DNA of 34,288 nucleotides from Candidatus Heimdallarchaeota archaeon (lineage in GTDB: Archaea; Asgardarchaeota; Heimdallarchaeia; Hodarchaeales; Hodarchaeaceae). Location of the stretch: assembly GCA_048881705.1 (NCBI GenBank), contig JBHLSH010000040.1:1-34288 (forward strand). The letters run 5' to 3'. Shown here piece after piece: positions 21,430-33,110 of the stretch (positions are counted from its first letter, which is position 1; each line of letters starts with the position of its first letter). A program made the position numbers and the translations under genes. The notes under the pieces were generated by a model. That model had not been told where the DNA came from, searched no databases, and was given only the letters and a program-made list of their open reading frames with translations.

Positions 21430-21939
21430 TTATCTTTGGTGATTCCGTTCCCATAATGGGGTTGTTTCGAAGCTTAAACTGGAACGATGGTTCATAAGTC
21501 GAAGGACTTCCTGGCGTACTCCAGGCCGTGGTTCCTGAAAACGAGCTAAGCGACGCACCTGGAGCAATCCAGTTGATGTTAAGGTTATCACTCCGATTCC
21601 CGCTTCTTTTGCCCATTTTAACTGTTGATCCTTTGTAAGGGTGTCCAAGTAGTCAAACTGGGACTCAGGACAGACAAGATAACAATAATCACAGAAAGGG
21701 CGGTACAATTGAGGATGTTGGATGTGGAACTGTGATTCGATTTCGAAAAAATGGATTGATGCATCAAGAGGATGGATACCAGCAAGATCTATTCTAACCT
21801 GACTCTGACCTACTAGATCTTCAAGATGGAGGTGTTTCGAAGTGATCTGAAGTTCTTGAAATGTTCGAAATTGCATTCTCTCTGCTAGGATGGAGTTTAA
21901 CCGTTGTGTTAACACTGATTCAGGGGGTGGAGATTCCAT
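21430..21939 (-). CDS. MmcB/DUF2161-like PD-(D/E)XK-fold protein
   Basis: RIDLAG...IHFFEIES...LYRPFCDYCYLVCP...GIGVITL matches the recalled MmcB-type layout. ExK reads EIE. Confidence 0.7.
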   Translation of the reverse strand: MESPPPESVLTQRLNSILAERMQFRTFQELQITSKHLHLEDLVGQSQVRIDLAGIHPLDASIHFFEIESQFHIQHPQLYRPFCDYCYLVCPESQFDYLDTLTKDQQLKWAKEAGIGVITLTSTGLLQVRRLARFQEPRPGVRQEVLRLMNHRSSLSFETTPLWERNHQR

Positions 21940-21970: not shown

Positions 21971-21979
21971 CTTATATAG
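21971..21979. promoter_or_regulatory. Candidate bidirectional TATA box
   Basis: CTTATATAG sits in the middle of the 69-bp gap between divergent starts at 21939 (-) and 22009/22012 (+). It is TATA-like on both strands. Confidence 0.45.
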
Positions 21980-22008: not shown

Positions 22009-22284
22009 TTGATGAATGATTTCACCTATTTAAATGGCGAGCAAGGACTAAAGAGTGAGAAATTACAGGATCAGCCGTCAATGCACCAACTTCCAGTTTC
22101 GGATTTGATCTCTAAAAGTCCTGTGTGTCAAATTTGTGAGGCCGGAATTACAAAATCCTGTCCCCTTCTACTGTACGATCAGCTGCCAGGCGTAATTCAG
22201 GTTAAAAACAATAAGATAGTGAGCTGTACTGCACAGCGTATATACCTAGGGTATCCCCATTCCTTCAAGAAAGAGGTGGTGTGA
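22009..22284 (+). CDS. Small Cys-rich (putative metal-binding) protein
   Basis: CxxC-x7-C-x21-C. Its 3' end carries the GAGGTG SD for the next gene, whose start lies 4 nt downstream. Confidence 0.5.
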   Translation: MMNDFTYLNGEQGLKSEKLQDQPSMHQLPVSDLISKSPVCQICEAGITKSCPLLLYDQLPGVIQVKNNKIVSCTAQRIYLGYPHSFKKEVV

Positions 22285-22288
22285 TCTC

Positions 22289-23749
22289 GTGACAACTCCT
22301 CAATCCGCATCCCAGGTTCCCTCCACTTCCCTCCTAAAGTTTGAACCTACAGTAACTGAACAAATGTTACTTCCGCAATTACAAGCATATAATCTTCTGA
22401 TCTTATACAATCGCCCTACGAGCTTATTCCGGATCTTAGCGTTCTTTTCTTTGTTTTACTGCAACCAGATGGAGGGACGGATCCTCATCCTTACAAAAAA
22501 GAGTTTTCAGAAGGAGCTACAGGTAGAACTCAAGAAACGGATCAAATTACATTCCTCTATCCTAAATGGGGCCATCCTACCCAATGCACGTAGAACTGAT
22601 TATGGGCAATTCCCCCTAATTGTCTCGACTCCGAGTACGACAAAGAATGACATTATGAACCACCTGGTTACCGTCGATCACTTTGGATTGATATTAATAG
22701 ATCATGCGGAAATGGGCGCTAGTTCTCGCACTCTACGCTGGCTTTGTTCCCAGTTCAACCACATTCGCCGCTGTGGATTTACCCAAATGACGGAAAGGGG
22801 ACGTTTGAAGCGTGCCCAACTGAATATGGGATTGAATCGAATTATTTCTTATGAACTGGCACCAAAGGGCCCAACACGCCCAAATCTACAGCACTACCCA
22901 ATTCCTCTACCTCAGGAATATCACTTCCTCCTTGATATTCTGAATGAAATTCGGAAATATGAACTGAAAGCCCTCCAGAATCTAGGGTTTCCCGTGTCAC
23001 CCAAAAGCTCACAACGGGAAATCGCTCTGCTTCATGATACATTGAAAACTGACCAGGCTCGCGCAAAGCTCGTGAAAACGGGTAATTTACTCAGAATAAT
23101 CAACCTCCAAAAAACAGTAGTTTCTAAAGGTTTTCCCGCCGCCCTCGACTACCTCCAAAGACTCGAGGATCAACTGTCTGTTGATCAAGACTTCTCGGGT
23201 AAACACGGACTTAATGAGTTCCTCTCAAACCCAAAAATAATGAAAATCAGGGATTTCCTTTTTACTTACAAGGATCTCATGCACCCAAAAATCCAGATGT
23301 TATTGAAGATTGTACGCGAAAATACAGGTCTAATATTGGTGATTACCCCCAATTTCGACATCGCAAGCTATATAACTTCTATTGTTCAGGCCCATGAGAT
23401 TCCCCTTTCCTATTTTTCAGACCCTCTTAGTAAGTACAGTGAAATTCAAATCAAACAACGCTTGGCAAAAATTAGTGGTTTCCAAACCCGGGTAGCTATT
23501 GCTAATACAGTGAATACGGTCTTAGCGGAGCGAGCCAAGATAATAATCGGATTTGAGGTATCGGCAGCCTTAATGGAACGCTTCGATAGGATCGAAGTAG
23601 AAATTCCTAGAATTTTTCTTATCGCAAAGCAAACCACTGAAGAGCAACGATTTTTTCAACTAAAAAACCTTGGTCGACCTCGAACTACACAAACCTCTGA
23701 CGTAATTGAGGGCGAATACCAGGGTAAGAACAAGAGTGATTCATCCTGA
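22289..23749 (+). CDS. Hef/FANCM/Mph1-like SF2 helicase homolog, predicted ATPase-dead, without ERCC4 nuclease
   Basis: Collinear with the recalled archaeal Hef sequence (IVSTPSTTKND, insertion domain PIPLP...KGFPAALDYLQRL, HPKIQML, FLIAKQTTEE). There is no GKT, DEAH reads DHAE at 22700-22711, and motif VI reads ERFDRIEV. Confidence 0.8.
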   Translation: MTTPQSASQVPSTSLLKFEPTVTEQMLLPQLQAYNLLILYNRPTSLFRILAFFSLFYCNQMEGRILILTKKSFQKELQVELKKRIKLHSSILNGAILPNARRTDYGQFPLIVSTPSTTKNDIMNHLVTVDHFGLILIDHAEMGASSRTLRWLCSQFNHIRRCGFTQMTERGRLKRAQLNMGLNRIISYELAPKGPTRPNLQHYPIPLPQEYHFLLDILNEIRKYELKALQNLGFPVSPKSSQREIALLHDTLKTDQARAKLVKTGNLLRIINLQKTVVSKGFPAALDYLQRLEDQLSVDQDFSGKHGLNEFLSNPKIMKIRDFLFTYKDLMHPKIQMLLKIVRENTGLILVITPNFDIASYITSIVQAHEIPLSYFSDPLSKYSEIQIKQRLAKISGFQTRVAIANTVNTVLAERAKIIIGFEVSAALMERFDRIEVEIPRIFLIAKQTTEEQRFFQLKNLGRPRTTQTSDVIEGEYQGKNKSDSS

Positions 23750-24522
23750 GATATCTCTCTTCATCGAACTTATTGGAATATATGACGTGCCCAAGGCAGT
23801 TCGCATATAGACGAATAGCCCACCTAAGTCTTGTTCATCCTCCCTCCCATATGTTTGCTATTCAGGCCCGGACTCATATTCGGCGCGTTACTACTGGTAT
23901 ATTATCCTTTATTTACGAAAAATTTGCCGCAGCTAAACAAATGGGCACAGATAACCTCCGTCACCTTATCGACCTCCATAACAACACATTACAGAGATAT
24001 TGGAACGGGAAGGGCGTTGAAACGTACATCTCTTACTTAGAGGAAGCGATTTATTCACTCATTGAGTATTTTCTAGATAAATTTTGTTTCACTTCCGACC
24101 AACGGGATATTCCTGTTTCCATTCCCATTATGCTCTATCAAATAATTGCATCTCCGGCATTGGGGTTAGTTGGACAACCCTCGGCCGTTTTTCAACATGC
24201 TGACGGTACGGTACTAGTATTGATTCAAAGTTGGCGAGACTCGCATAAGGATATGGAGAAGATGGGAGTCCAGGCAGCGATCTATAACCAGATTTTGACT
24301 TCAATGGGATTTCAGAACACAGAATTCTTCTATGTCAACTATCAGTCCTCAGAGATCGTTTATCGTTCAGTCACTCCCGATGATGTTACGCTTCTCGATC
24401 AAACGCTGTCAGACATTGAGGAACAGTACTTTGAGGGAGAATTTCCACGATCAGCGGCTCCACCTTGCGGATCCTGTGAGTATTTTTTACTATGCGAAAC
24501 TCGACAGAAGGTGATCTACTAA
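23746..24522 (+). CDS. AddB/RecB/Cas4-like PD-(D/E)XK Fe-S nuclease homolog, predicted catalytically dead
   Basis: YLSSSNLLEYMTCPRQFAY N-terminal motif, QAAIY, and CGSCEYFLLC (four-Cys iron staple). Motif II reads GQPS and motif III has no acidic residue or Lys. The first ATG/GTG/TTG is 23773, but the conserved motif begins upstream of it, so a CTG 23746 start is inferred. Confidence 0.78.
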   Translation: MRYLSSSNLLEYMTCPRQFAYRRIAHLSLVHPPSHMFAIQARTHIRRVTTGILSFIYEKFAAAKQMGTDNLRHLIDLHNNTLQRYWNGKGVETYISYLEEAIYSLIEYFLDKFCFTSDQRDIPVSIPIMLYQIIASPALGLVGQPSAVFQHADGTVLVLIQSWRDSHKDMEKMGVQAAIYNQILTSMGFQNTEFFYVNYQSSEIVYRSVTPDDVTLLDQTLSDIEEQYFEGEFPRSAAPPCGSCEYFLLCETRQKVIY

Positions 24523-25422
24523 TTGGCATTGGATGTTATACAAATATTCGTCATAGCTATCTATGGTCTTCTCAAGGTTTATGAACAGTGGCTGTTAACA
24601 CCCATCCAACCTCTCGAGTACTTCATACGTCTGTTTCTCTTTTATTGGTTTCTTCAGTTCTTATTGGGTCTGGTACCTTGGCTGGAGAAAATTGTTTACC
24701 AATTGTGCTTCCCCTTTCGCTGGCTCCATGTTTTCTTACATGTCCGCGCAGCTAAACAGGTAACCGAGGAAGTAGAGAAATTACGGAAGGAATCTGACGA
24801 GAGCTATGACAAACTGCTTGATACCAGTAACCTTCGGGCAACGCTGGTCTCTGGCCTCGATACCGCAGATGAAAATCCAGGATTAGTTTTAGGTATCAAT
24901 AGATTACACCATGCCCGTATGATTGCCTTTGCTCCTTTGAGATTTGCATTAGCAACCGCAGCAGTCTTTGTATTGGTCACTTTTGTCTACTTGTATGTCC
25001 CGATCGATCCATTAAAGAAAATGTTTGAAGTGCCTGTCCTGGTTTCACACTTTTATTTTTACATTGGTATTTTTGGAGTTCTATTTCCCTCCCGTAACGA
25101 TATGTTCTATTATTATCATGCGGCGCTTATCAATCTCAACGTTCGTCCCATATGGCTATATTGGTCCTTGGGAGTATATGTGCTTGTGATTTTAGAGATT
25201 CTTTGGCGTACAGAGGATTTTTTCATATCCCTTTTTGTTGCAACTATCGCATTTCACCTTTACATCCTCGGTCTCTTTAGTGTTGCGATTTTTGCTCTAG
25301 GGCGTAAAGCAAGTCCATCAGAGATTTTTTTCTTCCCCTTTGATCGGTTGCGTGATTGGAAGAACATGCAAGAAGAGGGAGCAGATCTTACATTAATGGC
25401 ATTAGAGGATTTGGATTTATAA
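24523..25422 (+). CDS. M50B/DUF3267-like polytopic membrane metalloprotease homolog lacking the catalytic Glu
   Basis: FPFRWLHVFLH (HExxH changed to HVxxH, 24727-24741), IAFAP, LFPSRND, several TM helices. The TTG start directly abuts the upstream stop. Confidence 0.7.
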   Translation: MALDVIQIFVIAIYGLLKVYEQWLLTPIQPLEYFIRLFLFYWFLQFLLGLVPWLEKIVYQLCFPFRWLHVFLHVRAAKQVTEEVEKLRKESDESYDKLLDTSNLRATLVSGLDTADENPGLVLGINRLHHARMIAFAPLRFALATAAVFVLVTFVYLYVPIDPLKKMFEVPVLVSHFYFYIGIFGVLFPSRNDMFYYYHAALINLNVRPIWLYWSLGVYVLVILEILWRTEDFFISLFVATIAFHLYILGLFSVAIFALGRKASPSEIFFFPFDRLRDWKNMQEEGADLTLMALEDLDL

Positions 25423-25472: not shown

Positions 25473-26207
25473 TTATTGGATATCTGAAAGCGCAGCTAGA
25501 TTCCACTTGGAAGAAAACGGATACTCACCAAATCGAGAAAAAAAAACTTCAAATGAACCATTATCTTTTACGATATAACAATTAATACACGTAAATTCGC
25601 CAATGACTCCTTGGGCATACTGTTTTCCAAAGTGTGAATGAGGAGCGTTCTGATCGGAAGATTGAACAATTAGATGATTTGTAAAGACAATTGGTACTTG
25701 TAGCTGTGAAGCGAGAATTTTCATGTCTAGTAGGTGATCCGCTAGGAGAGCAATCCATTTTGGTTTCTCTTTCCCCATAAAACAGGCTGCATCTAAGGGA
25801 CTACCAACCAAAGTGTCCAGAACGACTAGATCGTATTTTGAGTTTCCCGATTCATCTAAGAATTTTCGAAAGAAAATAATCTGTTCCACGAGCGACTCTG
25901 GTTTTACGATAGAAATCTGATCTAGGTGCTGAGGTTTCTGTATGATTTTTTTTAAGTTTCCTATACGTAAATGCCCGCAAAAGTCGCTGTATAATACTTG
26001 AGCGTCTGAATTCTGCGTCCAAAGTTCCTTTATGATCTGAAGGCAGAACCAGGTTTTTCCTGCCCCACTATCACCAAATATCGAATATAAATAACCTGGA
26101 CGGAGACCACCTGTTACGCGATCTAGGCTCGGGATGCCAAAAGGAAATTTTCCTAGCTGATTCCATTGGGAGATTATATCACGCAAACTCGTGATCTTCA
26201 ACATCAC
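25473..26207 (-). CDS. Rad51/RadA paralog (RecA-fold ATPase, no N-terminal HhH domain)
   Basis: FGIPSLDRVTGGLRPG, Walker A GDSGAGKT, VLYSD, Walker B LVVLDT, PIVFTNH. It lacks the RadB KHR motif. Confidence 0.85.
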   Translation of the reverse strand: MMLKITSLRDIISQWNQLGKFPFGIPSLDRVTGGLRPGYLYSIFGDSGAGKTWFCLQIIKELWTQNSDAQVLYSDFCGHLRIGNLKKIIQKPQHLDQISIVKPESLVEQIIFFRKFLDESGNSKYDLVVLDTLVGSPLDAACFMGKEKPKWIALLADHLLDMKILASQLQVPIVFTNHLIVQSSDQNAPHSHFGKQYAQGVIGEFTCINCYIVKDNGSFEVFFSRFGEYPFSSKWNLAALSDIQ

Positions 26208-26661
26208 TTTTCACTTCCACGACGGTTATGTCAGAGTGGATTCTACTCCCTCTGAGATCGCTCTCTGCCAAAAAAAATACTTGCATTCTCGTACAGAGGT
26301 AGTTTAAACCCATAAACGCTTCATTTGAAAAATTACGGATATATTTCGGCAGATGTATTATCATGGTTTTGAATCCCAGGTTTGCGGCGGCATGGAGTCT
26401 TTTTGTGGCAAAAAGGATGTGGTAGGTCTCAAAACGAGGAATCTGAAGAAAAAAGAGAGAGTTTACCAATTGAGCCTTTTTTGCTACATGCAAAGCCTGC
26501 AGAAAAATGGGAAGTGGGATAGTGCGATAGTCTACCCACAATATTTGTGCTCTTAATAATGGCAACCACTCAGGACTAAGTAACAGTTTCACTAAGCTCA
26601 AATAATTACCTTGCAATAACTTTGGGGGAGAAATCGAGGAAGTTCTTTGCACCTTCTCCAC
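26179..26661 (-). CDS. Degenerate RecA-fold protein without Walker A
   Basis: The strand/helix order ILWVD - NSLFFLQIP - FKTMIIH - LNYLCTRMQVFFLAE parallels the RecA core. It overlaps the Rad51 paralog by 29 nt. Confidence 0.55.
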   Translation of the reverse strand: MEKVQRTSSISPPKLLQGNYLSLVKLLLSPEWLPLLRAQILWVDYRTIPLPIFLQALHVAKKAQLVNSLFFLQIPRFETYHILFATKRLHAAANLGFKTMIIHLPKYIRNFSNEAFMGLNYLCTRMQVFFLAESDLRGSRIHSDITVVEVKSDVEDHEFA

Positions 26662-26663
26662 CG

Positions 26664-27737
26664 CTAGACTTTCTTTTCTGTTCTTATCTCAAGAAGGGCC
26701 TCAGGTGTGTCTGCTAAATTCTCCTGAAATACATACCAATAAGGAATACCAAATAGACCAATAATAAGCACTAACCACATTAATGGGGCAGGAATTGGGT
26801 GGGGGGGTAGCTCCATAAATGGGAAAATATCTGATCTGGGGCCAACCTGACCTGAGATTTGAATTGACATTCTAACCAGGATAGGTTCTGTTGTCTCTAT
26901 GATTTCGGGTGAAATCATGATGGCTATGGAATAAATGGGTACTTGACGATTAAACACAAGATTCTGAGCAATTCCTATCTGGTGATTACCGTCAAAATGG
27001 GTAGTTTGGCCTTCAATAGTAACGGAATCGATACCAATCCCTTCAACGGACAGATTTACCTGTGTTTCGAGCATTTGGGAGGCGGGATCTTCAATGAGGA
27101 CCGTAAGGAGGCCAGTACCGAGCAGTTTTGTACGCGACCATTGGTATTTCAAGACATTTGGCTGAATCTGGAAATTTCGTTCAGCCCCCAGTATTGGTAG
27201 GACTTTCCATTCCGTCGCTGAACTAGGTTGAAACCCCAATATCGCGGCTTCTAGGATCCGCACGTTTATACCTGGATTATTCCAAGAAAACCCTCCATCA
27301 AAGTTCAAAACGATTTCTAGCTCGTAGTAGGTCTGAGGAGTATGATTAAGGGGGAGTAGCAAGGATTGGGGCAATTCAAACTGATATGCTAGCGCTCGAA
27401 CTCCGATGCTATCCCGAATCTCTTCATATTGCTTGAAGACACCTTCTGAAATATCACCATTAAGATTCACAGTCACGAGAATCTGATCTAACTCATCACC
27501 GATGTTTTGAAGGGTAATGTTGAGTAAAACACGTTCCCACACCTCTGAAAAACTTACGGTTGTATAGAACTTATAGTGGCCTTCAGTTATTTGGACAGAC
27601 CAACCCAGATCCACTATTTCGCTTCTCAACGCTTCGACATCAGACGGGGTGGCCTTAACTGGGTTTGCCACAAATAGACCAAAACCGGACGTACTCATGA
27701 TTAAGAGTAGCGTAACCAAAGTAAATCCATTAGACAT
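26664..27737 (-). CDS. Type I membrane protein with beta-rich extracellular domain
   Basis: Signal peptide ending NPVKA, C-terminal TM (LMWLVLIIGLFGIPYWYVF), acidic tail. ATG 27737 lies 4 nt after the upstream stop and is preferred to 27776. Confidence 0.75.
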   Translation of the reverse strand: MSNGFTLVTLLLIMSTSGFGLFVANPVKATPSDVEALRSEIVDLGWSVQITEGHYKFYTTVSFSEVWERVLLNITLQNIGDELDQILVTVNLNGDISEGVFKQYEEIRDSIGVRALAYQFELPQSLLLPLNHTPQTYYELEIVLNFDGGFSWNNPGINVRILEAAILGFQPSSATEWKVLPILGAERNFQIQPNVLKYQWSRTKLLGTGLLTVLIEDPASQMLETQVNLSVEGIGIDSVTIEGQTTHFDGNHQIGIAQNLVFNRQVPIYSIAIMISPEIIETTEPILVRMSIQISGQVGPRSDIFPFMELPPHPIPAPLMWLVLIIGLFGIPYWYVFQENLADTPEALLEIRTEKKV

Positions 27738-27741
27738 AACG

Positions 27742-28317
27742 CTACGGCCCCCCTGATAAGAAAGTTGTGAGGACAAGTAGTGTTAGATTGAAAATTGCTC
27801 CCCCTATCCCAATACGAGATATTTTTTCATTCTGTGCAAGATCATTGAATGATGTGTACCCTAGTCGGAGCTTTCGGACTGTACGAATCTCTACCCACCT
27901 ATAATGCCTAATTGGATGATTTGTAATGGTGGATTTAGTGCCAAGGGGAATACCTTCCTTGTTAAAGGCGTCAAGTAGAAGGTGCGAGTACCAACCCACC
28001 AAACTGCCAACGAAAAGGAAATTCACAAGGGGAGATTCAATAATTTGGTCAATATACCACAGAGGAAAAAAATAGATGCCAGTCCACGGGGAATGGGTTA
28101 GAGGATGTCGATATCGACGTAGGAGAACCCCGTTATGATCCCATCGGGCACCTACTCGACGATCCAACCAGTTTGGCAATAAACTCAAGCAAGCCACCGC
28201 GAACGCTAATAGGGAAAATCCCCAGGCTAATTGCATTTGCTCAGCCCGCACAACGAAATAGAATATTAATAAGTGGATCAACCCAAGAGCAAAGAGGTAA
28301 TGTGTGAGACTTTTCAC
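27742..28317 (-). CDS. YdjM/DUF457/DUF1286-like membrane metal-dependent hydrolase
   Basis: THYLFALG, LPNWLDR, RHPLTHS, SHLLLDAFNKEGIP. GTGA start/stop overlap with the upstream gene. Confidence 0.78.
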   Translation of the reverse strand: MKSLTHYLFALGLIHLLIFYFVVRAEQMQLAWGFSLLAFAVACLSLLPNWLDRRVGARWDHNGVLLRRYRHPLTHSPWTGIYFFPLWYIDQIIESPLVNFLFVGSLVGWYSHLLLDAFNKEGIPLGTKSTITNHPIRHYRWVEIRTVRKLRLGYTSFNDLAQNEKISRIGIGGAIFNLTLLVLTTFLSGGP

Positions 28318-31300
28318 AGACTCCCTTCCTTACGACGGTTGATCACTAGGTTGCCTGTAGAAATCATCACAACTAAAACAATAGCACCAATTACTATTTG
28401 GGGAAAAAGTTCGTCGTTGAAAGGAACAGACGATTGGTTACTACCAGAAGAAGGATTCGCATTGGTAGAATTTACCTCTGACTCCCCTTCAACAGTAAAA
28501 GGTCCTATAACGCGCACCTGTTCTTGCCCAATATCGTCTGTTGCGACAATTCGAAAGGAATATGTTCCTATATCCAACCAAACCGTAAACGTATAAGTTT
28601 GGCCAGACCTGTGCGAAGGATATTGATCTCCATTAACCTCCAAAAAAACCGCAGTAACCTGATAATCATCAGTTACGTCTACTGTGACTTGAACATTACC
28701 TCCATCCTCTTGAAAATTCGCTTGCTGAATAGTACTATTCCCGATCACAGGTGGGGAGTCTGTTGCATTAAATGTCCCCAGTATAATCCTTTGGGCACCA
28801 TGAATATCAGAAATTACAAGTGAATAATTCCATAATGTTCGTGCGAGCAGGGGTGAACGGAAAATCCATCTCTGTGTCGTGCTTCCAATGGATTCATAGA
28901 TCAGGACACCTGTCACATTTAGGGCGCTTTCATCATTTATGAGTTCAAGGTAGACTGCTGAGGTGTCTATTGATGCATTTTCCTTATTGACAAGTATCGT
29001 GAGAGTAAAGTTTTGCCTTGCTTTCGCATAATTATCAATGAAGATATTGGGAGCAAACCATGAAGTGTAATAGGTACTTGAATGAGAGGGACTACCTAGG
29101 TCCCAAGGATACCATACCATGAGGATTATTGAGAGATTCTGAGGCATTATGTGAATTTGGCCCTCATACCTGTTCCAGATTGCCTGGTAGGTAAGAGGGT
29201 AGTTCTGTCCATTTATCTCAATTGTCACCTGATCTATTGGGAGTCCGATGGTATCCACCTCTACTTGCGCTTCATAATACACGGACTGCCACGTAAAATC
29301 AAATGAAGCGACGGTAGGCGCAGGAGGATACCACGTTACGGTGAAATGACGCATGTCATACTCGCCCAAAGTGGTACGGGCGTATAAAGTGATTCCCCAG
29401 ATCCCAGGAAATGGAAGCTGAAAATCTAGGGTATAATTCTGGGTGAAAAAATCCCATTGTAAGTCGCCAACATAAGATCCATTTCGCCAAACCCCTACAC
29501 TCTCGAAATCAGGGTTGTTTTGTAAAAGGGTTTGAACGTTGTAGCTACCAGCACCATCTACTTCCACCAAACGAGGGTCAATCAATAGATCAGCGGAGGG
29601 GACAATGGAAAAGTCTACTGTTTGGTGAACATTATTCCCTGCCTCGTCAAAAGCATACGCTGTGAGTTGATATTGACCAACTGTCAAATTATAAGCCATT
29701 GGGAGAGTATAGGTCTGATTTGTCGTATGGAGCCCTGAGATGAAATAGAGAATTGTAGCTCCATCAGAGGAGATAGATAAGTTAAAGTCTCCAATGTAGC
29801 TTTGGTTAAACGGGGTATCAATTTGTAGAATAGGTGGAATAGTATCAATGGAAAAACTGACCTGTTGGGTTATATTGTTAGATACCATATCTTCTACGGT
29901 TATTTTGAGAAGGTGACTCCCCTCGGACAGACTTTGGAATATAGAGGGGTATGGAGAGGGAACTGTGTTACCATCCAACCAGACTGAAACCTGGGTACCA
30001 TCCGTAAGAAAGGAAAATTGAACGTCTGAGGAAACATATGACGTATTTATGGGACTAATGATTCCCAAGGAGGGAGCAGTTGTGTCAACGGTGAAATCTG
30101 CAAATACGTGGGTCATTAAACCCCATTGGTTCACCCCATACGCATGTAGGGTATAACTACCTTCAACCAATGAGCGATACACAGTTTTATCCCATGTAAC
30201 GTTGTCAGAATCTACAGTATCGATGAAATACAAATAATTCTGGGCATTTCCGTCCAAAAAAACAGGAAAGATCCCTCCTACTGTGGTGGTGTGCGCAGGA
30301 CTGAGAATATTTACAACTGGAGGTTCTGGTTTCACCTCTAGATACATCATAGGACTCAAAGCCTCTTGGAAATACCCTGATGAGGGAGCTTGTACTTGGA
30401 GGGCATACATTCCAGGTTGATTGAATTGGATGTAGAAGTCATAACGACCCGCGCCATTTGTTACGTCTACCACACTCGAAGTGCCATTGACATATAATAC
30501 AGCATCATGAGCAGTCAGAGGGCCCGTGATCTCCCCAAGGACTAGTCCATCTAGATGAACGGTCACATTTATTGTAGTCGTGGCAGGAGAAGTTAAGGAG
30601 ACAGCCACTTCTTCATAAACTGCAATGAGATTTTGAGTCTCTCGTAAGTAAACGTAGGTGTCATTACAACGAACCATGATATTCTTGGACCCGCGACTAG
30701 TGAAAGTATGACTGTACGGAGTCGGACCTCCACCTCCTCCAACCCAATTCTGCCAAAGGATCCCTTCTATCCAAATTTGATAACGTTCCGAGCTGTTCAC
30801 GGTAAAGTAGTAGGGATCATTAACACTTCCAATACCTGATCCGATAACTGTAAGGTCGGATATGACCCACATGGTACTAGAATCGTACTTGGTATCGCTG
30901 GGGCCTTGCGCGCGGATTGTAAATCCACCCTTATAATAGGGCGTGGACCAATTAAATGTGCCCTGCCCAAAGCCATTGAGTTGAGTTGTTCCAATTACAA
31001 ACCAGCTAGGTTCGCCATTTTTCTGCCAACTCAAGTCGATCAAATCATTAAGACCGCCCTCGAGGGTGATTATGGTCCAATTATTTGCCACCACCTCGGT
31101 AGCGATCATCACGGAGAGAGGAGGCCGTACGGTGAAGCTGAGAATAGGCGTGTTGGTTGCTCCACGATAGAATCGGGGGATATTTCCCGTGTAGGAAACT
31201 TCGACGAAGTGGAGGCCAATTTGGGTTGATCGGGAGATGAAGTAGTCAGAGATAAAGATACCGTTGGCGTCTGTTTGTGCTGTTCCTAAAAAGACCCCTG

Positions 31301-33110
31301 AAGTGGTATCTGTCAAACTAACCTCCTCAAAATAAACCGGATTCCCAATTTCATCCAATAGTTCTCCCCATATTCGAAGTGTGTGTCCTTTCACCACCTC
31401 TGAGGCATTCTGACCAGTCGCATTGAAGGTCGGATTAGAGATTATGCTAAGGTTGAAGATTTCTACATGCGCATCATAGTTAAGAGATCCAAGATAGTGA
31501 ATCTGGTATTTACTAACCCCCAAAACATGATTGGGTTCTATATAGAAGTAAAAGTCCAATCCCGGGGCTGCATTCTTAGTTTCGATAGCGGTACCATTGG
31601 AGAATTCAAGTACGATTTGACCCTCAATTAATGCTACCCCACCGGAAAGTACAGTTGCGGTGATAGTGGTAGTTGTCGCACGATCAACTATCCCTGTTCC
31701 ATAGTCTAGATCAATTGTGGTGATACCTTTGATCGTGACCATGACCTCCACTTGCTGATCTAGGATATCAGATGGTGTGTTGAATGTCCTTAATCCATAC
31801 TTATGGAACCCTACGGTGGCATTGCTCGGGATTTGGGATGTAAATATCACAAACCCGTTAATATCCAATGTTCGGTTCTCCAATGAACGATACCCATCTG
31901 TCACATCTATCAGTTCTACGTCCCCAAAAACAGGTCTAGTCCAAACATCTTCCTCTGTGACGTAAACTGAAAACTTTATCGTCTCATTGTGTCTATATAT
32001 GCTCGAATTGGTTGTCGGATCTATACGGGCGTTATCTACGATAACTAATCCTTGACTGATGTTGTCGTATATATTGGATCCACTTGCATCGGTCAAAACC
32101 GTGAAAATAGTCAACAAACCTAACGTAACGGAGCTATTGGGAGAAAAGGTAAACATAACGTCCCTTGAAGTTAAAATAATCTGGTTTATGGTTATCCTCT
32201 TTCCCCCGCGGAAATAATACGACTCTAAAGGAAGACCCACGGGATAATCTCCTACCACCGTGATATTAAATTCGGATGTTTCCGCATTTCGTTGAATTGT
32301 GGTTTGGTTCACTCGTTGAACCAGAGAGAATCCATCCCCTTCGATTTGGACGCCGAACCATGAGGAAAACGCTGGGGCCGTCCCGCTTAATCCGGACCCC
32401 GTATAATTTGCAATGAAATAGTTCAGACCAACAGGGGAGAATTCTGGGATGGGGTAACTAAAACTATGCGTTAACACTGTGGGATTACTGTCAGGATAGT
32501 AGAACGGGAGGGGACCGTATGTGTAGATAGTGGGGGTTCCTGATAAATTCTGGTTGGTCACAGAAAGATAACCCCCTTCAAAATACCAGTTTTCGAGGAT
32601 GGAGAGCGTCAGCGTAAAACTTACGGTGCCATTCTTATGAGCCACAGTCGAATTAGCATCTAGGTCCAAGAATGGAGATTGTTGGGTTCCAGGTGTTATG
32701 TCCTCTACAAAGACCTTACAGGTTCCCGAACTCGTTTGATAGCCAGGAAATCCCTGAAAATCAGCCCGAAAGATATGGGTACCAGGAGTGGAAAGGCTCC
32801 ATGGCCAAGTGCTAGTGATGCTTCCACTCACTAAGCTAATGACATCCGTTTGAGTAGAATTGAGATGAGTAATAAGAACTGAACCCGTTGGAACCGGATC
32901 CACCCCTGCATAAACAATGACGGTAAAAACTGGAGGTTCGCTTGTTCCAACAACCCCAGTGTCGCTCAAAAGAGTGGTAGTGGTACTTAAAGGAGCCGCA
33001 AGGATAGATGTGGAGCTTGAAAGAACAACAATTACACTTACAATAACCCAGAGTAAAAATCCTCTTTGTAGTTTATTTTCATGCTTCATGTTAGCAGAGC
33101 CATTGAACAT
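28314..33110 (-). CDS. 1598-aa cell-surface protein with tandem Ig-like domains
   Basis: Signal peptide, beta-strand-rich repeats, many NxS/T sequons, Ser/Asn linker, C-terminal TM + RRK tail. No catalytic motif recognised. Confidence 0.88.
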   Translation of the reverse strand: MFNGSANMKHENKLQRGFLLWVIVSVIVVLSSSTSILAAPLSTTTTLLSDTGVVGTSEPPVFTVIVYAGVDPVPTGSVLITHLNSTQTDVISLVSGSITSTWPWSLSTPGTHIFRADFQGFPGYQTSSGTCKVFVEDITPGTQQSPFLDLDANSTVAHKNGTVSFTLTLSILENWYFEGGYLSVTNQNLSGTPTIYTYGPLPFYYPDSNPTVLTHSFSYPIPEFSPVGLNYFIANYTGSGLSGTAPAFSSWFGVQIEGDGFSLVQRVNQTTIQRNAETSEFNITVVGDYPVGLPLESYYFRGGKRITINQIILTSRDVMFTFSPNSSVTLGLLTIFTVLTDASGSNIYDNISQGLVIVDNARIDPTTNSSIYRHNETIKFSVYVTEEDVWTRPVFGDVELIDVTDGYRSLENRTLDINGFVIFTSQIPSNATVGFHKYGLRTFNTPSDILDQQVEVMVTIKGITTIDLDYGTGIVDRATTTTITATVLSGGVALIEGQIVLEFSNGTAIETKNAAPGLDFYFYIEPNHVLGVSKYQIHYLGSLNYDAHVEIFNLSIISNPTFNATGQNASEVVKGHTLRIWGELLDEIGNPVYFEEVSLTDTTSGVFLGTAQTDANGIFISDYFISRSTQIGLHFVEVSYTGNIPRFYRGATNTPILSFTVRPPLSVMIATEVVANNWTIITLEGGLNDLIDLSWQKNGEPSWFVIGTTQLNGFGQGTFNWSTPYYKGGFTIRAQGPSDTKYDSSTMWVISDLTVIGSGIGSVNDPYYFTVNSSERYQIWIEGILWQNWVGGGGGPTPYSHTFTSRGSKNIMVRCNDTYVYLRETQNLIAVYEEVAVSLTSPATTTINVTVHLDGLVLGEITGPLTAHDAVLYVNGTSSVVDVTNGAGRYDFYIQFNQPGMYALQVQAPSSGYFQEALSPMMYLEVKPEPPVVNILSPAHTTTVGGIFPVFLDGNAQNYLYFIDTVDSDNVTWDKTVYRSLVEGSYTLHAYGVNQWGLMTHVFADFTVDTTAPSLGIISPINTSYVSSDVQFSFLTDGTQVSVWLDGNTVPSPYPSIFQSLSEGSHLLKITVEDMVSNNITQQVSFSIDTIPPILQIDTPFNQSYIGDFNLSISSDGATILYFISGLHTTNQTYTLPMAYNLTVGQYQLTAYAFDEAGNNVHQTVDFSIVPSADLLIDPRLVEVDGAGSYNVQTLLQNNPDFESVGVWRNGSYVGDLQWDFFTQNYTLDFQLPFPGIWGITLYARTTLGEYDMRHFTVTWYPPAPTVASFDFTWQSVYYEAQVEVDTIGLPIDQVTIEINGQNYPLTYQAIWNRYEGQIHIMPQNLSIILMVWYPWDLGSPSHSSTYYTSWFAPNIFIDNYAKARQNFTLTILVNKENASIDTSAVYLELINDESALNVTGVLIYESIGSTTQRWIFRSPLLARTLWNYSLVISDIHGAQRIILGTFNATDSPPVIGNSTIQQANFQEDGGNVQVTVDVTDDYQVTAVFLEVNGDQYPSHRSGQTYTFTVWLDIGTYSFRIVATDDIGQEQVRVIGPFTVEGESEVNSTNANPSSGSNQSSVPFNDELFPQIVIGAIVLVVMISTGNLVINRRKEGSL
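29597..30330 (-). repeat. Three tandem ~80-aa Ig-like modules within the surface protein (approximate bounds)
   Basis: PPVVNILSP, DTTAPSLGIISPINTSY and DTIPPILQIDTPFNQSY recur about 240 nt apart. They are followed by EGSYTLHAY, EGSHLLKIT and VGQYQLTAY respectively. Confidence 0.6.

What the first reader, a model, noticed from the sequence alone, without database searches (positions are those of the whole stretch)
22289..25422. Three consecutive full-length pseudoenzymes in one operon (helicase, nuclease, protease)
Seen: three abutting intact ORFs from unrelated folds each lack their catalytic residues while keeping structural ones (Hef insertion domain; four Fe-S Cys; both His of the zinc motif). 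There are no internal stops or truncations. Inference: this is not random decay but co-option of enzyme folds as a non-catalytic, membrane-tethered DNA-binding or signalling complex, like eukaryotic pseudoenzyme scaffolds. I know of no described prokaryotic operon like this.
Basis: partly seen in the sequence, partly recalled or inferred. Interest (0 to 1): 0.85.

Follow-up and report, generated by a model that had tools for sequence, protein, structure and literature searches.

The report
Dead helicase, dead nuclease, unknown membrane protein
In one Asgard archaeon, a Hef-type helicase copy and a Cas4-type nuclease copy that have both lost their catalytic residues sit next to a conserved membrane protein of unknown family; all three are kept by selection, but the membrane protein is not a detectable protease and the three-gene arrangement is a recent rearrangement.

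Summary
Partly confirmed. The three + strand ORFs are intact (A 22289-23749, B 23773-24522, C 24523-25422). All three are under purifying selection (dN/dS about 0.14, 0.26 and 0.07 against a sister genome).

- **A** is a paralog of archaeal Hef. Helicase motifs I, II, III and VI are replaced in all 33 family members, and the Hef insertion domain is conserved. The same genome keeps a normal Hef.
- **B** has the Cas4/AddB-type fold with four invariant Fe-S cysteines and the QxxxY helix. Ser/Gln/aromatic residues replace D and ExK in all 15 orthologs.
- **C** is not shown to be a protease relative. It has no Pfam, PDB or fold match, and the M50, M48 and M50B models miss it. Only 12 columns around HxxxH resemble M50. 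Its family conserves HxxxH, HxY and PSxxD and never has HExxH, so nothing has decayed.

The "one operon" reading is weak. A lies next to B only in this genome and one sister genome, after an inversion. In other species A and B-C lie 13-16 kb apart, at opposite ends of a conserved cluster restricted to one genus. That cluster holds paralogs of recombination genes plus membrane and surface proteins. B-C is the conserved pair.

Prokaryotic precedents for dead helicase and nuclease domains exist (RecC, AddB).

The parts
22009..22284 (+). s91: small Cys-containing ORF (91 aa; ATG at 22012), the conserved upstream partner gene of A
   Evidence: Its stop lies 4 nt before A's GTG start, with a GAGGTGG-like ribosome-binding site and a TATA-like TTATATA near 21972. 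A homologous ORF of about 91 aa precedes A in other genomes. No family match.
22289..23749 (+). A: Hef-paralog pseudo-helicase (486 aa). Two RecA-like lobes plus the Hef insertion domain, all ATPase motifs replaced, C-terminal domain of the family absent
   Evidence: dN/dS 0.14.
23750..23772 (.). A-B junction: one end of the inversion that brought B-C next to A
   Evidence: The A-B adjacency is found only in the window and in G070/L003. The in-frame stretch upstream of B's TTG still reads like the N-terminus of B orthologs.
23773..24522 (+). B: Cas4/AddB-type PD-(D/E)XK protein (249 aa) with four Fe-S cysteines and without the D/ExK catalytic residues
   Evidence: The TTG start is kept in the sister genome, which lacks the ATG. 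dN/dS 0.26.
24523..25422 (+). C: multi-pass membrane protein (299 aa) of an unnamed family. Conserved H69-x3-H73, DENPGL 116-121, H176-x-Y178, P189-S-x-x-D193 and an acidic C-terminal LEDLDL
   Evidence: No family or fold match. dN/dS 0.065.
25473..26207 (-). RecA/KaiC-like ATPase (244 aa), convergent with C. First gene of the block that accompanies B-C in other species
   Evidence: Pfam Rad51/DnaB_C/KaiC matches at about 1e-5, with a GDSGAGKT Walker A. Synteny.
26179..28317 (-). Three genes: a 160-aa ORF, a 370-aa ORF and a YdjM-like membrane hydrolase (191 aa), in the same conserved block
28314..33110 (-). Giant Ig-repeat protein (1598 aa), head of the same block
   Evidence: Pfam Big_13 and Big_3_3. 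Conserved next to RadA in all related loci.
33290..34288 (+). Divergent RadA paralog, cut by the contig end. It is the third Rad51-family gene of the genome. XPD follows on contig C101
16906..21939 (.). Conserved upstream neighbours of A: a DEAD/MZB (Hrq1/MrfA-type) helicase (+), a 370-aa ORF (+), a TPR protein (-) and a 169-aa ORF (-)

Best explanation
The stretch holds three real, selected genes from two different units. An inversion placed the two units side by side.

A is a truncated member of a Hef paralog family restricted to one genus. It cannot bind or hydrolyse ATP in the usual way, because motifs I, II, III and VI are gone. It keeps the Hef insertion (thumb) domain. It most likely acts as an ATP-independent binder or scaffold for branched DNA, as the helicase-like domains of XPF and SHOC1/Zip2 do. 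Its likely partners are its conserved neighbours: s91, the MZB helicase, XPD and the RadA paralog.

B is a Cas4/AddB-type Fe-S domain without the metal-binding D/ExK triad. It most likely binds DNA ends or single strands, or plays a structural role, without cutting.

C is a membrane protein of an unnamed family. Its conserved His/His/His/Asp set looks like a genuine metal or active site, not a decayed protease site.

B and C form a translationally coupled pair. The pair normally sits beside an operon for a RecA-like ATPase, membrane proteins and a giant surface protein.

Shown: homology, loss of motifs, selection, synteny and the inversion. Inferred: DNA binding, a B-C contact and any joint function with A.
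For: - **A, homology and motif loss:** family profile against 1WP9 Hef helicase E=3.6e-16; against the genome's own canonical Hef E=1.6e-33. All 33 members lack motifs I, II, III and VI, while canonical Hefs keep PTGLGKT, DExH, TAT/TAS and QRxGRxGR. The genome also has a normal Hef and a short XPF.
- **B, fold and sites:** PDDEXK_1 matches 14 of 15 orthologs. The top Foldseek hits are Cas4-family proteins, AdnAB and Dna2 (probability 1.00). The four Cys are invariant. The only other conserved polar residues are Q152, Q167 and E236, the last inside the Cys motif. A global profile alignment puts Q152 on the E and W154 on the K of ExK.
- **C, family:** 50 clusters, with H69, H73, H176, Y178 and D193 conserved down to 16-25% identity.
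- **Selection:**
- **Synteny:** B-C lie next to the RecA244 block in most species, and A lies far away next to XPD. The window and an independent assembly (G070) share the inverted order.
Against: - No experiment and no expression data were available.
- The position of the first catalytic Asp in B rests on motif logic, not on a confident alignment.
- B could use other residues. E236 is invariant.
- The B-C pairing is not universal: 11 of 16 genomes with B have them adjacent.
- Both structure models are of medium confidence (pLDDT 67 and 73).
- dN/dS comes from a single genome pair.
Confidence: 0.6

Rival explanations
1. One reading: A, B and C are subunits of one non-catalytic, membrane-tethered complex for DNA binding or signalling, encoded as an operon.
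For: - In the window and in G070 the genes are co-directional, with a 23-nt gap and no gap.
- All three are under purifying selection.
- In all species, A and B-C belong to the same conserved cluster of about 25 kb.
- C-family paralogs sit near A's neighbours (the 169-aa ORF, s91, the MZB helicase) in three other genomes.
Against: - The A-B adjacency is derived and confined to two sister genomes.
- Elsewhere the genes lie 13-16 kb apart on opposite strands.
- C is not a detectable protease homolog.
Confidence: 0.15
2. B is still a nuclease, or another enzyme, that uses a remodelled active site. It would then not be a pseudoenzyme.
For: The replacement motifs GRPSAVF and LIQT(Y/F) are themselves strongly conserved, and E236 is invariant. 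An outgroup homolog (P0090) has Glu-Asp just before the aligned position.
Against: No conserved Asp/Glu/Lys triad lies in the beta-sheet core in any of the 15 orthologs. PD-(D/E)XK nucleases almost always need these metal ligands (PMC1185551).
Confidence: 0.12
3. C is a very distant site-2-protease-like (M50) protein that lost the catalytic Glu across its whole family. It would then be a pseudo-protease family.
For: A local 12-column match of the HxxxH helix to M50 (lHvxxHvxxAk against HEfaHgiAa; hhalign E=0.17). A Peptidase_M50B-like cluster appears at rank 16 with score 0.81 in the language-model search. A conserved PSxxD could stand in for the third zinc ligand.
Against: - Both signals are at noise level.
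- The Pfam M50, M48 and M50B models do not hit C, although they find 4 and 6 true proteases in the same genome.
- No fold match.
- No member of the family has Glu at that position.
Confidence: 0.1
4. The ORFs are decaying remnants or mis-called genes.
For: A lacks the C-terminal domain of its family. B evolves fast: 81% identity to the sister genome against 92-93% for A and C.
Against: dN/dS is well below 1 for all three. There are no stops. Orthologs are intact in up to 20 genomes. Short forms of A recur in other species.
Confidence: 0.02

Closest known systems
Archaeal Hef (helicase part, PDB 1WP9) and the helicase-like domains of eukaryotic XPF and SHOC1/Zip2
   Same: A is a clear homolog of the Hef helicase domain, including the inserted helical domain. 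Like XPF and SHOC1/Zip2 it has lost the ATPase motifs (established knowledge for XPF; Zip2-Spo16 as an XPF-ERCC1-like DNA-binding complex in PMC6411835).
   Different: A is confined to one archaeal genus, so the inactivation is probably independent of the eukaryotic one. The window copy has no C-terminal domain at all. In full-length relatives that domain is only weakly ERCC4-like, and no HhH2 was found.
RecC and AddB of bacterial RecBCD/AddAB
   Same: Prokaryotic proteins in which helicase domains and a PD-(D/E)XK nuclease domain are inactivated and reused for DNA binding and guidance (PMC1185551; PMC3321194).
   Different: Those are SF1-type domains fused in one chain and work with active partner subunits. 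Here a dead SF2 Hef-type protein and a dead Cas4-type protein are separate genes, and no physical link between them is shown.
Cas4 family (SSO0001 4IC1, Cas4-Cas1-Cas2, Argonaute-associated ACE1)
   Same: B shares the fold, the N-terminal Cys plus CxxCx5C cluster and the QxxxY helix.
   Different: No D/ExK. No cas genes nearby, and no canonical Cas4 in the genome. B scores below the Cas4 curated cut-offs. It is paired with a membrane protein.
Site-2 protease / Peptidase M50
   Same: An HxxxH in a membrane helix, followed by small residues.
   Different: No Glu, no significant profile or fold similarity, and no NxxPxxxxDG motif.

Membership tests
Hef/XPF/FANCM family (Hef-type SF2 helicase domain) | Significant sequence homology to the Hef helicase domain | tested here: met
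   NCBIfam PRK13766 E=5e-17, far below the equivalog cut-off (61 against 610 bits). Family profile against 1WP9 E=3.6e-16. Against the genome's own Hef E=1.6e-33.
Hef/XPF/FANCM family (Hef-type SF2 helicase domain) | ATPase/helicase motifs I (GxGKT), II (DExH), III and VI (QRxGRxGR) | tested here: not met
   All four are replaced in all 33 family members and intact in canonical Hefs aligned alongside.
Hef/XPF/FANCM family (Hef-type SF2 helicase domain) | Helical insertion domain between the two RecA-like lobes | tested here: met
   It aligns to Hef residues of about 209-311. It holds many of the family's invariant columns.
Hef/XPF/FANCM family (Hef-type SF2 helicase domain) | C-terminal ERCC4 nuclease domain and HhH2 | tested here: not met
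   Absent from the 486-aa window protein. In 640-aa relatives there are no Pfam or PDB hits. Only weak leads exist.
Cas4 / PD-(D/E)XK with Fe-S cluster (PF01930, PF12705, TIGR00372) | Profile match | tested here: inconclusive
   PDDEXK_1 24.8 bits, above its 22-bit cut-off. Cas_Cas4 17.7 bits (cut-off 22.7) and TIGR00372 30.6 bits (cut-off 65) fall below theirs. 14 of 15 orthologs match PDDEXK_1.
Cas4 / PD-(D/E)XK with Fe-S cluster (PF01930, PF12705, TIGR00372) | Fold | tested here: met
   Top Foldseek hits are ACE1, Cas4-Cas1, AdnAB, Dna2 and SSO0001 (E from 1.4e-5, probability 1.00). The model has pLDDT 72.9 and TM-scores are only 0.25-0.42.
Cas4 / PD-(D/E)XK with Fe-S cluster (PF01930, PF12705, TIGR00372) | Four cluster cysteines (one N-terminal Cys plus CxxCx5C) | tested here: met
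   C6, C232 and C235 are invariant and C241 is present in at least 90% of the 15 orthologs.
Cas4 / PD-(D/E)XK with Fe-S cluster (PF01930, PF12705, TIGR00372) | Catalytic D ... (D/E)xK metal-binding residues | tested here: not met
   Q152 and W154 (Tyr or Phe in orthologs) lie at the ExK positions. GRPSAVF stands where GxxD is expected. No conserved acidic residue or Lys lies in the core.
Cas4 / PD-(D/E)XK with Fe-S cluster (PF01930, PF12705, TIGR00372) | cas gene or CRISPR context | tested here: not met
   No cas genes among the neighbours. No PF01930 match anywhere in the genome, which is 91% complete.
Membrane zinc metalloproteases (M50 site-2 protease, M48, M50B) | Profile match to the family | tested here: not met
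   No Pfam hit at E up to 1 for 10 orthologs and 10 distant members. The M50, M48 and M50B genome searches do not hit C. hhalign aligns 12 columns with E=0.17, or with E=0.1 on an unrelated stretch.
Membrane zinc metalloproteases (M50 site-2 protease, M48, M50B) | HExxH zinc-binding and catalytic motif | tested here: not met
   The motif is HxxxH. Val, Ile, Leu, Gln, His, Ala, Lys or Thr follows the first His in all 24 aligned members, never Glu.
Membrane zinc metalloproteases (M50 site-2 protease, M48, M50B) | Fold | tested here: inconclusive
   No protease among the Foldseek, VIA-align or Atlas matches. The best Z is 6.2, on helical hairpins only, and the model has pLDDT 67.

The most novel reading that the evidence does not exclude
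The cluster of about 25-30 kb, found in one genus, runs from the MZB helicase through s91-A, XPD, the RadA paralog, the giant Ig protein, YdjM and the RecA-like ATPases to C and B. It may be one membrane-linked machine for recombination or DNA exchange. Such a machine would be built from paralogs of core repair proteins, several of them turned into non-catalytic scaffolds. A would be a dead-helicase (and, in its full-length form, dead-nuclease) Hef paralog that works like eukaryotic XPF-family pseudoenzymes (SHOC1/Zip2-Spo16, FANCM-FAAP24). It would have arisen inside an Asgard lineage.
Probability: 0.12. Interest if true: 0.8.

Novelty: new variant of a known kind. Interest (0 to 1): 0.5.

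Why it matters
Catalytically dead copies of XPF/Hef-family proteins and Rad51 paralogs are a hallmark of eukaryotic recombination (XPF, FANCM, SHOC1/Zip2, Rad51 paralogs). This Asgard genus built the same kind of parts from its own Hef, Cas4 and RadA genes and keeps them under selection. That gives a prokaryotic system for testing how dead helicases and dead nucleases are reused. It also flags an uncharacterised membrane protein family with a conserved His/Asp site linked to DNA-repair paralogs. The restriction to one genus, and the precedents in RecC and AddB, limit the surprise.

Tried and rejected
- **B-C complex prediction**: no verdict (score 0.01). It counts neither for nor against binding.
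- **Bacterial-type promoter and terminator scan**: counts at or below the shuffled expectation, so uninformative for an archaeon.
- **tRNA and Rfam scans of the window**: nothing found.
- **B against PDB by sequence**: only a weak match to Cas4 4R5Q, at the Cys regions (E=0.011).
- **Local hhalign of B against Asgard Cas4**: covers only the C-terminal half. The ExK mapping therefore rests on a low-confidence global alignment.
- **C against known families and folds:** Pfam, NCBIfam, PADLOC, PDB sequences, Foldseek PDB, VIA-align wide, Atlas by shape and Atlas by features gave no credible relative.
- **XPD or RadA remnants downstream:** I tested whether the 160-aa and 370-aa ORFs and the 244-aa ATPase downstream are broken XPD or RadA. 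They are not. XPD lies on contig C101.
- **Remnant of A's lost C-terminal domain:** not found downstream of XPD.
- **C-terminal domain of long A relatives:** no Pfam or PDB sequence match. hhalign to ERCC4 gave E=0.47.
- **Defence-system reading:** PADLOC gives nothing beyond Cas4 for B.
Full report
**Anatomy.** Three + strand ORFs fill 22289-25422: A (GTG 22289-23749, 486 aa), B (TTG 23773-24522, 249 aa) and C (TTG 24523-25422, 299 aa). None has an internal stop.
- The A-B gap is 23 nt, and C begins on the base after B's TAA.
- B's TTG start is probably the real one. The sister genome keeps it but has ATC where the window has the next ATG.
- A small ORF, s91 (22009/22012-22284), ends 4 nt before A. 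It is preceded by a TATA-like element.

**Gene A.**
- *Homology.* NCBIfam places A on the Hef model at positions 78-410 of 781 (E=5e-17), far under the equivalog cut-off. A profile of 16 family members hits the P. furiosus Hef helicase structure 1WP9 at E=3.6e-16, over Hef residues 9-430. A profile of the long members hits the genome's own canonical Hef at E=1.6e-33.
- *Motif loss.* In an alignment of all 33 retrieved members with four canonical Asgard Hefs, the Hefs read PTGLGKT, DE(V/A/T)H, TAT/TAS and QRxGRxGR. Every family member has unrelated residues there; the window reads NRPTSLF, IDHAE, TQM and RFDRIEVEIP.
- *What is kept.* Many of the family's invariant columns fall in the inserted helical domain.
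- *Active paralogs.* The genome also has a normal Hef with an ERCC4 domain and a short XPF. All 41 sampled genomes of the class have canonical ERCC4 proteins.
- *Distribution.* Among 400 genomes of the phylum, the family is found (E<=1e-30) in 20 genomes (G000 and 19 of the other 21) of one GTDB genus only. NCBI labels for these genomes vary (Thor-, Heimdall-, Hod-, Promethearchaeota).
- *Length.* Most members are about 640 aa, with an extra C-terminal domain. The window protein and six others are short.

**Gene B.**
- *Profile matches.* Pfam PDDEXK_1 scores 24.8 bits (cut-off 22), and 14 of 15 orthologs match it. Cas4 models match below their cut-offs.
- *Fold.* An AlphaFold model built from 15 orthologs (pLDDT 72.9) finds Cas4-family proteins first: ACE1, Cas4-Cas1, SSO0001, and the AdnAB and Dna2 nuclease domains (E from 1.4e-5, probability 1.00).
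- *Conserved residues.* C6, C232 and C235 are invariant, and C241 and the QxxxY glutamine are nearly so.
- *Catalytic residues.* The strands that should carry D and ExK read GRPSAVF and LIQ(S/T)(W/Y/F) in all orthologs. A global profile alignment to Asgard Cas4 puts Q152 on Glu and W154 on Lys. That alignment is of low confidence, and the Asp position rests on motif logic only.
- *Distribution.* B occurs in 15 of the 21 other genomes of the genus and is barely detectable elsewhere. The genome has no canonical Cas4.

**Gene C.**
- *No known family or fold.* There is no match in Pfam, NCBIfam, PADLOC or PDB sequences. The model (pLDDT 67) has no credible structural neighbour in Foldseek-PDB, VIA-align wide or the Atlas.
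- *Protease models miss it.* The M50, M48 and M50B family models find four and six true proteases in this genome but not C. hhalign to M50 aligns only 12 columns around HxxxH (E=0.17). A language-model hit to an M50B-like cluster (0.81, rank 16) is at noise level.
- *The family is real and wider than the genus.* A profile search finds 50 clusters.
- *Conserved sites.* Across 24 members at 16-38% identity, H69, H73, H176, Y178, P189 and D193 are kept. The residue after H69 is never Glu.

C is therefore not a decayed HExxH protease. It has its own conserved His/Asp set.

**Selection.** Against the sister genome (L003/G070, about 90% nucleotide identity), dN/dS is:

| Gene | dN/dS | Bootstrap range |
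|---|---|---|
| A | 0.14 | 0.09-0.20 |
| B | 0.26 | 0.18-0.41 |
| C | 0.065 | 0.03-0.11 |

These values lie within the range of the neighbouring genes.

**Context.**
- *A's conserved neighbourhood.* Across the genus, A sits in the order MZB-type DEAD helicase, 370-aa ORF, TPR protein, 169-aa ORF, s91, A, XPD, RadA paralog, giant Ig protein.
- *Where B-C sit.* B and C lie at the far end of the same cluster. They are convergent with a block made of the giant Ig protein, YdjM, a 370-aa ORF, a 160-aa ORF and a RecA-like ATPase. That puts them 13-16 kb from A, on the other strand.
- *The inversion.* In the window and in the independent G070 assembly, the segment from XPD to B is inverted. B-C therefore follow a truncated A. 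RadA lies at 33290-34288, and XPD follows on contig C101.
- *B-C pairing.* B and C are adjacent in 11 of 16 genus genomes that carry B. They are also adjacent in one unrelated metagenome contig, whose B-like gene likewise lacks a canonical ExK.
- *C paralogs.* C-family paralogs occur alone, or near the 169-aa ORF, s91 and the MZB helicase, in other genomes.
- *RadA.* The RadA in this cluster is the third Rad51-family gene of the genome.

**Reading.**
- Two of the three proteins are true pseudoenzymes with family-wide, selected losses.
- The third is an uncharacterised membrane protein that may well be active.
- The three-gene operon is young.
- B-C and s91-A are the conserved pairs.
- A link between them at the level of the whole cluster is possible but unproven.

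**Known parallels.**
- RecC has inactivated helicase and PD-(D/E)XK domains (PMC1185551).
- AddB has an inactivated helicase domain (PMC3321194).
- Eukaryotic XPF-family pseudoenzymes include Zip2-Spo16 (PMC6411835) and FANCM-FAAP24 (PMC3763369).

**Leads not settled: the C-terminal domain of long A relatives.**
- It shows an in-register but non-significant hhalign match to ERCC4 (E=0.47).
- The family profile alignment runs about 20 residues into Hef's ERCC4 domain, with Asn and Leu at the catalytic Asp and Glu positions.
- Language-model neighbours are SPO16/SCRE, ERCC4 and FANCM pseudonuclease clusters (0.79-0.88).
- There is no Pfam or PDB match.

**No result.** The B-C complex prediction gave no verdict.

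Noticed in passing
Relatives P0006-P0027, last ~140 residues (alignment A5); absent from window 22289-23749: Full-length members of the A family carry a C-terminal domain. Three weak signals link it to the ERCC4 nuclease fold with the catalytic residues replaced: an in-register hhalign match (E=0.47), a profile alignment running into Hef's ERCC4 domain, and language-model neighbours SPO16/SCRE, ERCC4 and FANCM pseudonuclease (0.79-0.88). If this holds, the family is a doubly dead Hef paralog.
   Followed up: partly
window 22009-22284 (+): A small ORF of about 91 aa with several Cys precedes A in every related locus and ends 4 nt before A. It is a candidate partner of A and has no family match.
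   Followed up: partly
window 33290-34288 (+), continued on G000:C101: The RadA here is a divergent third Rad51-family gene (210 bits against 316 and 302 bits for the two others in the genome). The cluster is thus made of paralogs, not housekeeping copies.
   Followed up: partly
window 25473-33110 (-): A conserved five-gene block: giant Ig-repeat protein, YdjM-like membrane hydrolase, 370-aa ORF, 160-aa ORF and a RecA/KaiC-like ATPase. It keeps its order in all related genomes examined and accompanies B-C.
   Followed up: partly
window 25396-25419 (C-terminus of C): C and its close orthologs end in an acidic L-x-L-E-D-L-D-(L/V/I) tail. It is kept as an acidic tail in many distant members and may be a short docking motif.
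   Followed up: no
L096, L098, L102 (other genomes of the genus and class): Paralogs of the membrane protein C lie next to homologs of the 169-aa ORF, s91 or the MZB helicase, which are A's neighbours. This hints at a recurrent link between the C family and this repair-like neighbourhood.
   Followed up: no
L076:96-1788 (metagenome contig): A distant B-like/C-like gene pair sits beside a NYN-domain gene and a methyl-accepting chemotaxis protein. The pair therefore exists outside the RecA-block context.
   Followed up: partly
L001:5061-5567 (ortholog of window 21430-21939): The ortholog of the 169-aa ORF gives weak 4Fe-4S ferredoxin-type hits (E about 0.006-0.03). It may be another Fe-S protein in the cluster.
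   Followed up: no
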